From: Escherichia phage AV115
Length of the DNA: 64,000 nucleotides
Reading direction: 5' to 3' (one strand)
Sequence record: OR352945.1
Shown here: positions 2,415 through 6,469 of the stretch, piece by piece
How positions within the stretch are numbered: the first letter of the stretch is position 1
Layout: the number at the start of each line of letters is the position of its first letter
Notes under the pieces: model-generated
The model's input: the letters and a program-made list of their open reading frames with translations, nothing else
What the model was told of the DNA's origin: nothing
Database searches by the model: none
Position numbers and translations under genes: made by a program

Positions 2415-2723
2415 TTACATAAGAAGCAAACGTTCTACCGGAGTACCATCAACCGAAATTACTTTATCAAGGCGGAAAGAACGCCACTGACCTAACTCGG
2501 TATCGAATGCTCGAACTGATTCACGAGGTTCAGAACGAACTTCTGTTGATGGGTTACTATTTTCATATTTGACTTCAAGTTCGTCGCGGGAAGCAAACAT
2601 CGTACGAACATCACCGTTAGCCTTTTCAAATACAACACAATGAACGCCTACAGACAGAATAGTTTTAATACGTTCACGAAGAACCATAGTTTCTTGTTCA
2701 GTTAAAATCATATTATTCACCAC
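2415..2723 (-). CDS. hypothetical protein (102 aa)
   Basis: ORF between cd and gene 31. Confidence 0.45.
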   Translation of the reverse strand: MVNNMILTEQETMVLRERIKTILSVGVHCVVFEKANGDVRTMFASRDELEVKYENSNPSTEVRSEPRESVRAFDTELGQWRSFRLDKVISVDGTPVERLLLM

Positions 2724-3294
2724 AAAAGTTTCGAATTTGTTCCCAATTCAGAGAACGAAGATTATTACGAGAGTACTGAATTACTTCAATACCGGCTTTT
2801 TTTAGAATGTCTGCCCAATTTTCAGGAGATCGGTCATATAATTCTGCATATACAACCTTTTTAATACCTGACTGTGTAATAGCTTTAGTGCAATCAGGAC
2901 ATGGAGAAAGCGTCGTATACAACGTAGCACCTTCAATAGAATTACCTTTACGAGCTGCAAACAAAATTGCATTCAATTCCGCATGGATTTCGTTATTAGC
3001 AGACCATGCACTATGAGCGGCCCGATGTTCTTTAGCCAAAACAAAATTATCCACCCGTCCAAATGCTGTAGTGCCTTCTTTATGCCCAGCAACGATGACC
3101 GGGCTTGGTTTATTCTTCAACCAACCATTTTCGGATGCATGTTCGCAACAGTTTGTACCACCTGAAGGAGAGCCATTATAACCTGTAGAAATAATGCGTC
3201 CATCTTTTTCAATGACGGCGCCAACTTTCCATGAACAACATTTTGATTCTTGAGAAATCAGATAAGCAATCTGAAGATATGTGCTAGCTTTCAT
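2713..3294 (-). CDS. cd: dCMP deaminase
   Basis: 193 aa; cytidine/deoxycytidylate deaminase zinc motifs (CEHA...SPCPDC); T4 cd length. Confidence 0.9.
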   Translation of the reverse strand: MKASTYLQIAYLISQESKCCSWKVGAVIEKDGRIISTGYNGSPSGGTNCCEHASENGWLKNKPSPVIVAGHKEGTTAFGRVDNFVLAKEHRAAHSAWSANNEIHAELNAILFAARKGNSIEGATLYTTLSPCPDCTKAITQSGIKKVVYAELYDRSPENWADILKKAGIEVIQYSRNNLRSLNWEQIRNFCGE

Positions 3295-4286
3295 TATTGA
3301 ACCTTATTAATATAAGTTAACAGCTCTTTAGTTTGTTCCCAACTGATGCACGCATCGGTAATGGAAACGCCATAGGACATATTATCAGAAATTTTTTGAT
3401 TTCCTTCATGTAGGAATGATTCTATCATAATTCCTTTGACCAAATCATTAGCTGCTAAATTTTTACCAATACCAATTTGATTGCTATAATGCCCATCAGC
3501 GTTTGCATGGCTACAGTCAACCATTACATAATGATTCAGACCTACTGCCCTTGCTTTGTTAGAAGCTTCTTGAATATCAGAAGAATGATAGTTCGGGCCG
3601 TTGGTCCCGCCACGCAATACGATATGCGTATTCTGATTACCTTCAGCTTCAACAATGCCTACAGTACCATCGACGTCCATACCCATATACCGATGAGGCC
3701 AGGCGGCACTATACATCGCGTCTGTAGCTACTTTAATAGAACCATTGGTTGCGTTCTTGAAGCCTACGCACATCGGTAGACCTGAAGCAATTTCACGATG
3801 TGTCTGACTTTCAGTCGTACGGGCGCCAATAGCAACCCATGAGAAAATACCAGAAAGATACTTAATCGTGAATGGGTCTAATACTTCAGTTGCTAATGGA
3901 AGTCCCATACGTAGAAGTTTACGACACAATGTTCGTGCAACTATAAGACCGTGGTTCATATCAAAACTTCCGTCAAGATATGGATCATTTACAAGACCTT
4001 TCCAACCTACGGTAGTTCGAGGCTTTTCAAAATAAACGCGCATCACTAACAGAACATTAGGAAGACGAGTTTGAAGTTCAGCCAGACGTTTGCCGTATTC
4101 AACAGCAGCAATAGGGTCATGAATTGAACAAGGACCTACAACAATAAGTTTGCGTGGGTCTTCACCGTTCATAATCGAATTAACTTGTTCGCGATGAGAA
4201 GCCACTTGTGATGCGTAAGCTTCCGACAAAGGAATAATCTCAGCCAGTTCTTTTGGAGAAATAAGTTTTCCGACGACAGGTAACAT
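3294..4286 (-). CDS. 3-deoxy-7-phosphoheptulonate (DAHP) synthase, class I AroF/AroG/AroH-like
   Basis: 330 aa with blocks GPCSIHD, MRVYFEKPRTTVGWKGL, AIGARTTESQTHRE, VGFKN, DCSHAN, ITDACISWE that I recognise from E. coli DAHP synthases; ATG at 4284-4286 with TAAGGA RBS. Confidence 0.85.
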   Translation of the reverse strand: MLPVVGKLISPKELAEIIPLSEAYASQVASHREQVNSIMNGEDPRKLIVVGPCSIHDPIAAVEYGKRLAELQTRLPNVLLVMRVYFEKPRTTVGWKGLVNDPYLDGSFDMNHGLIVARTLCRKLLRMGLPLATEVLDPFTIKYLSGIFSWVAIGARTTESQTHREIASGLPMCVGFKNATNGSIKVATDAMYSAAWPHRYMGMDVDGTVGIVEAEGNQNTHIVLRGGTNGPNYHSSDIQEASNKARAVGLNHYVMVDCSHANADGHYSNQIGIGKNLAANDLVKGIMIESFLHEGNQKISDNMSYGVSITDACISWEQTKELLTYINKVQ

Positions 4287-4406
4287 AACAATCCTTAGGA
4301 GATATAAACAGATTCTGATTCAACAATACCTTTAACCGGATTAGACAGGCTAAGTTGGTAGTGCTCAGATTTATGACCATTCTCGATAGTAATGAGATAG
4401 CTCTCA

Positions 4407-4643
4407 TTATAGTGTTCCATATACTCGAGTTGCTTCAACAAGACCATCACTGCCTAATTTAAGATTAGTAATTTGGTCACCATCTTTAGGATTAACGATT
4501 ATGAGAAAAGAACGTGGAGATTCTTGAATAACTCGTAATGTTGCATCTTGGAAACGTTCAGACACTTTATTGATGAGTGCTTGAGCAAATTCTTTTACTT
4601 TAATCTGAAATTCGTGTACTGTAATTGGGTTTTCACTTAGCAT
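4407..4643 (-). CDS. hypothetical protein (78 aa)
   Basis: ORF only. Confidence 0.4.
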   Translation of the reverse strand: MLSENPITVHEFQIKVKEFAQALINKVSERFQDATLRVIQESPRSFLIIVNPKDGDQITNLKLGSDGLVEATRVYGTL

Positions 4644-4703
4644 TTCTATTTCCTCATTTGTTGGTAGAGTTATAGTATCACAACTCCACCATGTTGTAAA
4701 CCA

Positions 4704-4979
4704 TTAAATTGCTTTGCATTCAATTTTTTGTGTACCGAAATTGATATCACATTGGATAACTAAATCGCCGTCAAGATCAAATACCACTATGACGTGTGCA
4801 GACCCAGGGAGAAGAGTAATAGCAATAGAATCTACTTGGTCTGGGAGCAAAGCATTGAGTACATGAGTTAGTTGAGCATGAACTCTGAGTTCGGCTGCAA
4901 TATCAAGCACTTCAAACATATTATTAGCAATAATCTGACTGAAGACTACCTTTACAATTTCAGAATATTTAGGGAACAT
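4704..4979 (-). CDS. hypothetical protein (91 aa)
   Basis: ORF only. Confidence 0.4.
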   Translation of the reverse strand: MFPKYSEIVKVVFSQIIANNMFEVLDIAAELRVHAQLTHVLNALLPDQVDSIAITLLPGSAHVIVVFDLDGDLVIQCDINFGTQKIECKAI

Positions 4980-4986
4980 AATTACC

Positions 4987-5211
4987 TCAGTGCACAGTAT
5001 TTACTTTAACTCGAACAACAAATCGCTCGGTTGGTTCACCGACGGGAACAAACTCTACATGATATTCACCTTTGTAACGAGTATTCAGATCATTACGAAT
5101 TCCTGCGAGTTTGTTGATTAATGTAGGACTCATATTAAGTCCCACTAGTTTACGAAGCATTTTGTATGCTTCATCTTCGATTTCATGATGTTTATCGTAC
5201 ATAGTTTTCAT
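4987..5211 (-). CDS. hypothetical protein (74 aa)
   Basis: ORF only. Confidence 0.4.
   Translation of the reverse strand: MKTMYDKHHEIEDEAYKMLRKLVGLNMSPTLINKLAGIRNDLNTRYKGEYHVEFVPVGEPTERFVVRVKVNTVH

Positions 5212-5382: not shown

Positions 5383-5383
<1 letters not shown>
5192..5383 (-). CDS. hypothetical protein (63 aa)
   Basis: ORF abutting pseT. Confidence 0.4.

Positions 5384-6469
<1,086 letters not shown>

What the first reader, a model, noticed from the sequence alone, without database searches (positions are those of the whole stretch)
3294..4286. Phage-encoded class I DAHP synthase between cd and pseT
A 330-aa ORF carries long blocks that I recognise from E. coli AroF/AroG/AroH (GPCSIHD, MRVYFEKPRTTVGWKGL, AIGARTTESQTHRE, DCSHAN, ITDACISWE), so it is almost certainly an active-fold enzyme for the first committed step of the shikimate pathway. 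It sits in a T-even early nucleotide-metabolism block where, as I recall T4, only small cd.x ORFs lie. It has its own ATG and RBS. It looks shorter at both ends than the host isoenzymes; the N-terminus is where feedback-resistance mutations map in the host enzymes (from memory), so the phage enzyme may escape Tyr/Phe/Trp inhibition. This is a candidate auxiliary metabolic gene of likely host origin.
Basis: partly seen in the sequence, partly recalled or inferred. Interest (0 to 1): 0.8.

Follow-up and report, generated by a model that had tools for sequence, protein, structure and literature searches.

The report
Phage DAHP synthase, remodelled feedback site
This T4-like (Mosigvirus) phage carries an already-catalogued copy of the enzyme that opens the aromatic amino-acid pathway; its catalytic site is intact, but the pocket where the host enzymes sense tyrosine, phenylalanine or tryptophan has been rebuilt, so it probably ignores the host's feedback brake.

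Summary
Window 3294-4286 (minus strand) encodes a 330-aa class I-alpha DAHP synthase (TIGR00034 428 bits; 51% identical to E. coli AroF). All metal, PEP and E4P residues are present, and the model superposes on crystal structures at TM 0.95. It replaces T4's cd.1 between cd and cd.2.

It is not new. An identical protein is annotated in RefSeq (phage PhAPEC2), 212 phage records carry a homologue, and PHROGs lists the family (phrog_5045) as an auxiliary metabolic gene. I found no functional study.

It is not a recent host capture. It is about 50% identical to any bacterial protein, its composition matches the phage, and it belongs to a monophyletic phage clade (93/100 bootstrap) that sits in the same pseT-cd slot in four Straboviridae genera.

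What I add: only 5 of 329 alignment columns separate the phage clade from its 98 nearest bacterial relatives. Four are inhibitor-site residues (Q151K, D155G, S180P, F209Y; p~1e-5). Q151K matches the feedback-resistant yeast allele ARO4-Q166K. The N-terminal arm that closes the site is missing throughout the clade.

Best reading (0.55): an early-expressed enzyme insensitive to aromatic amino acids that keeps shikimate entry open during infection. This is untested biochemically. Because the rebuilt pocket is itself conserved, a new effector remains possible.

The parts
3294..4286 (-). [quoted passage not shown] Metal ligands C53, H260, E289, D311. PEP/E4P residues R83, K88-P89-R90-T91, A155, R156, K177, R225. 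Remodelled regulatory pocket I141, K142, G146, P171, Y200, A214.
4292..4296 (-). Shine-Dalgarno AAGGA, 5 nt upstream of the DAHPS ATG. It overlaps the TAA stop (4295-4297) of the upstream 41-aa ORF.
   Evidence: read directly from the sequence
4295..4420 (-). Small ORF of 41 aa (MEHYNES...VYIS) filling the apparent spacer between the cd.2-like gene and DAHPS. It matches phrog_15876 over its full length and has a weak similarity to the C-terminal half of the cd.2 family, so it may be a partial duplication left at the cassette junction.
   Evidence: (annotated in phage AV109)
3296..4403 (.). Segment with no counterpart in T4. It replaces T4 132701-133027 (gene cd.1). The flanks (cd on one side, cd.2/cd.3 on the other) are homologous at about 72% nucleotide identity.
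   Evidence: blastn breakpoints; T4 annotation
2713..3294 (-). cd, dCMP deaminase, immediately downstream. Its ATG overlaps the DAHPS stop (TAATG), which suggests co-transcription and translational coupling.
4672..4700 (-). Sigma-70-like promoter TTTACA-17-TACTAT (TG-extended) between the cd.3-like and cd.2-like genes. T4 has an annotated early promoter (Pe133295) at the same position. It is the likely source of the cd.2-like / 41-aa ORF / DAHPS / cd transcript (inferred).
4407..4643 (-). cd.2-like gene (78 aa, DUF7320, phrog_1504); upstream flank of the cassette.

Best explanation
The gene encodes a catalytically competent class I-alpha DAHP synthase (PEP + erythrose-4-phosphate -> DAHP + Pi). 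It is probably transcribed early, together with dCMP deaminase. In the host isoenzymes, Tyr, Phe or Trp bind a pocket formed by residues 146-155, 175-180 and 209-223 plus the N-terminal arm of the neighbouring subunit. In the phage lineage the inhibitor-contact residues are replaced (Gln->Lys, Ser->Pro, Asp->Gly, Phe->Tyr, Pro->Ile, Thr->Ala) and the arm is deleted. The enzyme is therefore predicted not to be shut off by aromatic amino acids. Feedback inhibition of DAHPS is the main brake on carbon entry into the shikimate pathway, and a single feedback-resistant DAHPS is enough to raise flux in engineered E. coli. One such phage gene could therefore keep chorismate-derived products (aromatic amino acids, possibly also folate or quinone precursors) flowing after host gene expression stops. 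Shown here: family membership, the intact catalytic site, the fold, the clade-fixed pocket changes, the truncation, and the age and synteny of the gene. Inferred: activity, insensitivity to feedback, early expression, and benefit to the phage.
For: Family and active site: Pfam 252 bits; TIGR00034 equivalog 428 vs cutoff 173; 51/48/44% identity to AroF/G/H with every metal, PEP and KPRT residue conserved. These residues are invariant in 28/28 phage-clade and 98/98 bacterial sequences. The AF2 model has pLDDT 89 and TM 0.95 / 1.7 A to DAH7PS crystal structures. Regulatory site: only 5 of 329 columns separate the phage clade from the 98 nearest bacterial homologues. Four are literature-defined inhibitor-site residues, Q151K, D155G, S180P and F209Y (Fisher p 1e-5; 4e-5 when restricted to bacterially conserved columns). 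The fifth, T223A, is two residues from the feedback-resistance position V221, and P150I just misses the threshold. Per PMC9529685, Q151/Q152 and S180/S181 contact the inhibitor main chain, D155 forms a stabilising salt bridge, and P150L, S180F and F209A/S are feedback-resistant. Yeast ARO4-Q166K is a named feedback-resistant allele (PMC5879953), and Q166 = AroG Q151 = phage K142 by direct alignment. N-terminus: 48-52 residues precede the catalytic Cys in all 28 phage sequences, against at least 58 in all 98 bacterial ones, and the equivalents of AroG D6/D7 are absent. Selection and age: the clade is monophyletic at 93/100; the gene sits in the pseT-cd slot in Mosigvirus, Marfavirus, Bragavirus and Winklervirus; its divergence tracks cd and pseT; GC3 is 0.30, like its neighbours. 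Expression: TAATG overlap with cd, own SD, promoter at the T4 Pe position.
Against: No enzymology, genetics or expression data were found for any phage DAHPS. The pocket changes are fixed and the pocket columns are MORE conserved than average within the phage clade (entropy 0.36 vs 0.96, permutation p 0.004). That is what a still-functional site, possibly binding something else, would look like, rather than an abandoned one. The clade keeps Gly at AroG-211 as Tyr-sensitive enzymes do, and keeps D146, P(147) and L179, so residual Tyr binding cannot be excluded. In a wide sample of the family, S180P (19/125) and F209Y (15/125) occur in other lineages whose regulation is unknown. The gene is dispensable: RB69 and T4 lack it. 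The 28 phage sequences are one clade, so the 'fixed' differences are effectively a few stem-branch events.
Confidence: 0.55

Rival explanations
1. Retargeted allostery. The enzyme is active, but the rebuilt pocket is a working regulatory site for a different ligand (for example chorismate or prephenate, a nucleotide, or a sugar phosphate linked to phage DNA metabolism). Shikimate entry would then be tied to a phage-relevant signal rather than simply deregulated.
For: The six substituted residues are nearly invariant across a clade that has diverged to 56% identity, and pocket columns are significantly more conserved than the protein average. The acidic N-terminal residues that bind the inhibitor's amino group are lost and a Lys is gained, which reverses the local charge. 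The gene sits in the nucleotide-metabolism block and overlaps cd.
Against: Conservation may only reflect structural roles of this interface region. No candidate ligand is indicated by any result. Q->K at this position gives plain feedback resistance in yeast Aro4.
Confidence: 0.2
2. An ordinary extra isoenzyme. The protein is still inhibited (most likely by Tyr, as it is AroF-like with Gly at the specificity position) and merely tops up DAHPS dosage once host synthesis stops.
For: It is closest to AroF (51%). Gly202 is the Tyr-type residue, and D137, P138 and L170 are retained.
Against: Both residues that hold the inhibitor's main chain (Q151, S180) are replaced, the D155 salt bridge is lost, and the N-terminal arm is absent, all in 27-28 of 28 sequences. 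Single changes at these positions suffice for resistance in E. coli, C. glutamicum and yeast enzymes.
Confidence: 0.12
3. A carbon-flux device rather than an amino-acid device. By consuming erythrose-4-P (and PEP), the enzyme pulls the non-oxidative pentose-phosphate reactions toward pentose phosphates. These are needed for nucleotides and, in these phages, for the arabinose that decorates their cytosines.
For: Mosigviruses carrying the gene (e.g. phage NP) have 5-arabinosyl-dC DNA, and the source of the arabinose precursor is stated to be unclear (PMC13390438). DAHPS co-occurs with a phage arabinose-5-P isomerase in Mosigvirus, EcS1, vB_SdyM_006, KLB31, phiP4-3, and Serratia, Erwinia and Enterobacter phages.
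Against: RB69 makes arabinosylated DNA without the gene. At least 22 Klebsiella phage records have DAHPS but no isomerase hit. About 53 Acinetobacter records and the Yersinia phages have the isomerase without DAHPS. The co-occurrence may only reflect shared ancestry. There is no biochemical precedent.
Confidence: 0.07
4. A non-catalytic or hetero-oligomeric role. The phage subunit would mix with host AroF/G/H subunits and disable their shared inter-subunit inhibitor sites, or act as a decoy.
For: The inhibitor site of class I-alpha enzymes is built from two subunits, including the partner's N-terminus (established structural knowledge; PMC9529685).
Against: Perfect conservation of all catalytic residues in 28/28 sequences argues that catalysis itself is under selection. 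At about 50% identity to the host enzymes, mixed oligomers are uncertain. There is no supporting data.
Confidence: 0.03

Closest known systems
E. coli AroF (Tyr-sensitive class I-alpha DAHP synthase; PDB 6AGM/6AGL)
   Same: 51% identity over the full length; same fold; identical metal (Cys-His-Glu-Asp), PEP and KPRT erythrose-4-P residues; Gly at the Tyr/Phe specificity position.
   Different: The first ~10 and last ~9 residues are missing, and there are two small internal deletions. The inhibitor-contact residues Q152, S181, D156 and F210 are replaced by K, P, G and Y, and P151 by I. GC3 is 0.30 vs 0.50.
Engineered or selected feedback-resistant DAHPS alleles (E. coli aroG P150L, S180F, F209A/S, D146N; aroF P148L; yeast ARO4 Q166K, K229L)
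   Same: The phage clade naturally carries substitutions at the same positions: P150I, S180P, F209Y, and exactly Q->K at the Q151/Q166 position.
   Different: The laboratory alleles carry a single change. The phage clade carries five or six together plus an N-terminal deletion, and keeps D146 and AroF-type P148. Resistance of the phage enzyme has not been measured.
PHROGs family phrog_5045 / RefSeq 'phospho-2-dehydro-3-deoxyheptonate aldolase' of Straboviridae (e.g. YP_009056797.1 of phage vB_EcoM_PhAPEC2)
   Same: 100% identical protein, same locus. Full-length 606-bit match to the PHROG, which is categorised as 'moron, auxiliary metabolic gene and host takeover'.
   Different: Nothing; this is the same gene. 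The database entries carry only a name, with no statement about regulation or role.
KDO8P synthase (KdsA), the paralogous PEP aldolase that uses arabinose-5-P
   Same: Same superfamily and chemistry (Pfam DAHP_synth_1 covers both).
   Different: The protein passes the aroFGH equivalog model and has the DAHPS KPRT motif and the class I-alpha decorations. No KdsA model appeared among the NCBIfam hits. It is not a KDO8PS.

Membership tests
Class I-alpha DAHP synthase (AroF/G/H type) | Full-length match to the family models above their curated cutoffs | tested here: met
   Pfam PF00793 252.6 bits (cutoff 25.5), profile positions 8-269 of 270. NCBIfam TIGR00034 aroFGH equivalog 427.9 (cutoff 173.2) and PRK12755 455.3 (cutoff 343).
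Class I-alpha DAHP synthase (AroF/G/H type) | Metal ligands Cys61, His268, Glu302, Asp326 (AroG numbering) | tested here: met
   C53, H260, E289, D311; invariant in 28/28 phage-clade sequences.
Class I-alpha DAHP synthase (AroF/G/H type) | PEP-binding Arg92, Lys97, Ala164-Arg165, Lys186, Arg234 and the KPRT erythrose-4-P loop | tested here: met
   R83, K88-P89-R90-T91, A155-R156, K177, R225; invariant in 28/28.
Class I-alpha DAHP synthase (AroF/G/H type) | (beta/alpha)8 barrel with the beta6a/beta6b hairpin decoration | tested here: met
   AF2 pLDDT 89.1 with strands 198-203 and 209-214 present. Foldseek TM 0.93-0.95, rmsd 1.6-2.0 A to 4HSO, 1GG1, 1KFL, 5CKS.
Class I-alpha DAHP synthase (AroF/G/H type) | Canonical aromatic amino-acid inhibitor site: Gln151, Ser180, Asp155, Phe209, Pro150 and the N-terminal arm with Asp6/Asp7 | tested here: not met
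   K142, P171, G146, Y200 and I141 instead, and the arm is absent; fixed in 27-28 of 28 clade members. This feature defines the regulated isoenzymes, not the catalytic family.
Class I-alpha DAHP synthase (AroF/G/H type) | DAHP synthase activity in vitro or in vivo | not testable with these tools
   No enzymology for any phage homologue was found in the searchable literature.
Specific E. coli isoenzyme equivalogs (AroG, AroH) | Score above the isoenzyme-specific NCBIfam cutoff | tested here: not met
   AroG model 363.4 vs cutoff 568; AroH model 386.9 vs cutoff 463. It is not an orthologue of either. It is closest to AroF by identity (51%) but forms its own clade.
Phage auxiliary metabolic gene family phrog_5045 | Full-length profile match; phage genomic context | tested here: met
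   606 bits, residues 1-330 to profile positions 8-337 of 341. Found in 212 phage records and syntenic in four Straboviridae genera.
KDO8P synthase (KdsA) | Match to KdsA models; arabinose-5-P-type substrate loop instead of KPRT | tested here: not met
   Only DAHPS models were returned by NCBIfam; the KPRT loop is present.

The most novel reading that the evidence does not exclude
The rebuilt and strongly conserved pocket is not a dead site but a new allosteric site. In this reading, the phage lineage has re-wired the first step of the shikimate pathway to respond to a different metabolite (for example a nucleotide, a sugar phosphate or a pathway intermediate), coupling aromatic/chorismate supply to the state of phage DNA synthesis. 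Even the simpler version, a natural multi-substitution fully feedback-insensitive DAHPS kept by phages for a very long time, would be the first characterised shikimate-pathway AMG in a model coliphage group.
Probability: 0.15. Interest if true: 0.6.

Novelty: already known. Interest (0 to 1): 0.35.

Why it matters
The gene's existence is not news. It is annotated in more than 200 phage genomes and catalogued as an AMG, though apparently nobody has tested what it does.

It would matter for three reasons.

(1) DAHPS feedback inhibition is the main control point of aromatic biosynthesis. A phage enzyme that bypasses it would be a clear, experimentally tractable case of a virulent coliphage reprogramming host amino-acid metabolism. 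There are natural null comparators (RB69, T4) and available isolates (e.g. BASEL Bas47, Durham NP).

(2) The clade offers an evolved, stable combination of pocket changes at exactly the positions that metabolic engineers mutate singly, often at a cost in activity or stability. It could be a useful deregulated DAHPS.

(3) If the conserved rebuilt pocket binds a new ligand, it would show how phages re-purpose host allostery.

Tried and rejected
(1) Recent capture from the E. coli host: rejected. Only a 120-nt patch at 74% matches aroG; no protein above ~55% identity outside the phage clade in 5.8 billion sequences; none above 50% among 1.84 billion representatives; composition is ameliorated.

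(2) Requirement for arabinosyl-DNA modification: rejected as obligatory. RB69 lacks the gene, and the distributions of DAHPS and arabinose-5-P isomerase only partly overlap.

(3) KDO8P-synthase identity: rejected (KPRT motif).

(4) Looking for a bacterial lineage with the phage pocket signature as a donor: none found. At most 1 of 6 residues is shared among the 98 nearest relatives and at most 2 of 6 among 125 wide representatives.

(5) dN/dS among close Mosigviruses: uninformative, with only 1-5 differences per 993 nt.

(6) The idea that the gene is less diverged than its flanks because of a recent sweep: dropped. The flank divergence comes from whole-allele swaps of cd.3, cd.2 and pseT, not from uniform divergence.

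(7) Literature searches for experimental work on phage DAHPS (ten searches) gave only two passing mentions (PMC11845039, PMC8022965).

(8) The structure model could not be used to inspect pocket geometry, because coordinates are not exposed, and the site is inter-subunit anyway.
Full report
OBSERVATION. The ORF is real and sits at the stated coordinates, on the minus strand: 3294..4286, 330 aa, ATG start, and the longest reading that frame allows. An AAGGA Shine-Dalgarno lies 5 nt upstream of the start. The stop overlaps the start of dCMP deaminase (cd, 2713-3294) as TAATG. Upstream in transcription order are a 41-aa ORF (4295-4420), a cd.2-like gene (4407-4643), a cd.3-like gene (4704-4979), two small ORFs and pseT (5383-6282). 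A sigma-70-like promoter (TTTACA-17-TACTAT, 4700-4672) lies between the cd.3-like and cd.2-like genes, where T4 has an annotated early promoter. I therefore infer an early transcript running cd.2-like / 41-aa ORF / DAHPS / cd.

WHAT IT IS. The protein matches Pfam DAHP_synth_1 (252 bits, E 4e-75) and the NCBIfam aroFGH equivalog TIGR00034 (428 bits vs cutoff 173). It falls below the AroG- and AroH-specific cutoffs. The best solved-structure relative is E. coli Tyr-sensitive AroF (E 7e-105). Identity to E. coli K-12 AroF/AroG/AroH is 51/48/44%. Every metal ligand (C53, H260, E289, D311) and every PEP/erythrose-4-P residue (R83, K88-P89-R90-T91, A155-R156, K177, R225) is present. These residues are invariant across 28 phage-clade and 98 bacterial sequences. 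An AlphaFold2 model (pLDDT 89) superposes on class I-alpha DAH7PS crystal structures at TM 0.95 and 1.7 A, with the beta6a/6b hairpin present. It is a DAHP synthase, not the paralogous KDO8P synthase.

GENOMIC SETTING AND HISTORY. The window is a Mosigvirus (RB69-like Straboviridae). The protein is 100% identical to that of phage vB_EcoM_PhAPEC2, and the 4-kb region is 97.6% identical to phage AV109, both classified as Mosigvirus. Compared with T4, window 3296-4403 replaces T4 132701-133027, which is gene cd.1. Both flanks are homologous at about 72%. RB69 has nothing in this slot: cd abuts cd.2. The slot therefore has three states. tblastn finds the gene in 212 phage records: 139 at 95% identity or more, 47 at 60-80% (Klebsiella, Enterobacter, Edwardsiella, Serratia and Erwinia phages), and others lower, with Proteus phages near 58%. 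In Marfavirus F48, Bragavirus PM2 and Winklervirus X20 the gene lies in the same pseT-cd interval. Its divergence there (58-68%) tracks that of cd (62-77%) and pseT (45-65%). In a neighbour-joining tree with the 98 best bacterial hits, the phage sequences form one clade (93/100 bootstrap).

Outside that clade nothing exceeds about 55% identity in a 5.8-billion-protein search. Among 1.84 billion representatives, nothing exceeds 50%. E. coli genomes share only a 120-nt patch at 74%. GC3 is 0.30, like the neighbouring phage genes and unlike aroF/G/H (0.50-0.57). The gene is therefore an old resident of this phage lineage, not a recent host capture.

IS IT KNOWN? Yes. Many GenBank and RefSeq records annotate it as phospho-2-dehydro-3-deoxyheptonate aldolase or DAHP synthase. 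PHROGs has a dedicated family, phrog_5045, in the category 'moron, auxiliary metabolic gene and host takeover', which the window protein matches at 606 bits. One paper proposes the homologue in Klebsiella phage KLB31 as an AMG (PMC11845039). Another merely lists the domain in phage phiC120 (PMC8022965). Ten literature searches found no biochemical or genetic test.

THE REGULATORY SITE: THE NEW PART. All 28 phage-clade sequences have 48-52 residues before the catalytic Cys, against at least 58 (median 60) in all 98 bacterial sequences. The equivalents of AroG Asp6/Asp7 are gone.

The stronger signal is in the pocket itself. Across 329 alignable columns, only five are at least 90% one residue in the phage clade and at least 90% a different residue in bacteria: Q151K, D155G, S180P, F209Y and T223A (AroG numbering). 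P150I just misses the threshold, at 88/98. Four of the five belong to the 14 inhibitor-site or feedback-resistance positions taken from the literature before the test (Fisher p 1e-5; 4e-5 among bacterially conserved columns).

According to PMC9529685, Q151/Q152 and S180/S181 bind the inhibitor's main chain. D155/D156 makes a salt bridge that stabilises the site. P150L, S180F, F209A/S, L175D and V221A are feedback-resistant. PMC5879953 names yeast ARO4-Q166K as a feedback-resistant allele. The Aro4 and AroG crystal sequences align to the same column of a common query, which shows that Q166 = Q151 = phage K142. The phage clade thus carries, as fixed wild-type residues, changes at the positions where single mutations deregulate the enzyme in three other organisms.

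CAVEATS ON THAT INFERENCE. (i) The 28 sequences are one clade, so the differences are a handful of stem-branch events. (ii) The rebuilt pocket is more conserved than the rest of the protein within the clade (entropy 0.36 vs 0.96; permutation p 0.004). That fits a structural role or a new ligand as well as simple loss. (iii) The clade keeps the Tyr-type Gly at position 211, and also D146, P147 and L179. (iv) In a wide sample of the family the pocket is less universal: S180P occurs in 19/125 representatives and F209Y in 15/125, although none shares more than 2 of the 6 phage residues. (v) No assay exists.

RIVAL TESTED: ARABINOSE. Mosigviruses decorate cytosine with arabinose, and the origin of the arabinose precursor is said to be unclear (PMC13390438). 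PMC8056088 points to arabinose-pathway homologues in several T4-like groups, including Proteus phages that also carry DAHPS. I compared distributions. The phage arabinose-5-P isomerase occurs in 275 records (Escherichia 136, Acinetobacter 57, and others; Klebsiella 3 or fewer). DAHPS occurs in 212 (Escherichia 124, Klebsiella 25, Acinetobacter 4). Many enterobacterial T4-likes have both genes. But RB69, about 53 Acinetobacter records and the Yersinia phages have the isomerase alone, and at least 22 Klebsiella records have DAHPS alone. The link is not obligatory and may reflect shared ancestry. I keep it as a low-probability rival, in the form of an erythrose-4-P sink pulling pentose-phosphate supply.

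MECHANISM PROPOSED. The best reading (0.55) is an early-expressed, catalytically normal DAHPS that aromatic amino acids cannot shut off. It would keep carbon entering the shikimate pathway in an infected cell whose own isoenzymes are feedback-inhibited and no longer renewed. It is well established in metabolic engineering that a single deregulated DAHPS raises pathway flux (PMC5879953). The fate of the extra chorismate (aromatic amino acids for virion protein, or folate/quinone precursors) is unknown. Rivals: retargeted allostery (0.20), an ordinary still-regulated extra isoenzyme (0.12), a carbon-flux or arabinose link (0.07), and a non-catalytic role (0.03).

VERDICT. The gene is an already-catalogued phage AMG, so as a discovery it is ordinary. 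The residue-level evidence for a lineage-wide rebuilt feedback site is, as far as I could find, undescribed and directly testable, which gives it moderate interest.

Noticed in passing
window 4295-4420 (-): A 41-aa ORF fills the apparent spacer upstream of DAHPS and ends on its Shine-Dalgarno. It matches phrog_15876 over its full length and, weakly, the C-terminal half of the cd.2 family (phrog_1504, E 1.8e-5; local alignment shuffle p 0.015). It may be a partial cd.2 duplication left at the cassette junction. It is annotated in AV109 but not in PhAPEC2, and is absent upstream of DAHPS in F48 and X20.
   Followed up: partly
window 4704-4979, 4407-4643 and 5383-6282: The region is a recombination mosaic. 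Against AV109 everything is at most 0.8% diverged except the cd.3-like gene (29%). Against PhAPEC2, pseT is 16% and cd.2-like 8% diverged, while DAHPS differs at 1 of 993 nt. Whole small-gene alleles are being swapped between Mosigviruses.
   Followed up: partly
window 2415-3294 vs T4 (L004): T4 genes 31.2 and cd.1 have no counterpart anywhere in the 64-kb window by tblastn; the 31.1-like gene abuts cd. Window cd and pseT are only 72-74% identical to T4's proteins, while gp31 is 96% identical, another sign of mosaicism.
   Followed up: partly
L008 (Aeromonas phage HJ05, OQ594355) 3899-5062: An unrelated 79-kb phage carries an independent DAHPS homologue (37% identity, annotated as hypothetical). 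Its pocket is also non-canonical (Q151H, D155P, S180P, F209V, P150A). This may be a convergent loss of the canonical inhibitor site in another phage lineage, or membership of a different subfamily.
   Followed up: no
phage collection; RB69 locus L012 9964-10599: There is partial co-occurrence of DAHPS with the phage arabinose-5-phosphate isomerase of the arabinosyl-cytosine pathway among enterobacterial Straboviridae (Mosigvirus, EcS1, vB_SdyM_006, KLB31, phiP4-3, Serratia/Erwinia/Enterobacter phages). There are clear exceptions both ways (RB69, Acinetobacter, Yersinia; Klebsiella).
   Followed up: partly
proteins P0121 (799 aa) and P0122 (730 aa): These are tandem-fused double DAHP synthases in the representative library. 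In P0122 both copies have degenerate catalytic motifs (GPVSAHD / GPEAIHD in place of GPCSIHD; the KPRT loop is lost), so it looks like a pseudo-enzyme pair. Origin unknown.
   Followed up: no
proteins P0150, P0177, P0221: A few non-phage-clade representatives combine a short N-terminus (50-52 residues before the catalytic Cys) with one or two phage-type pocket residues (e.g. K at position 151). They are no closer overall to the phage clade (39-48% identity), and their source organisms were not looked up.
   Followed up: no
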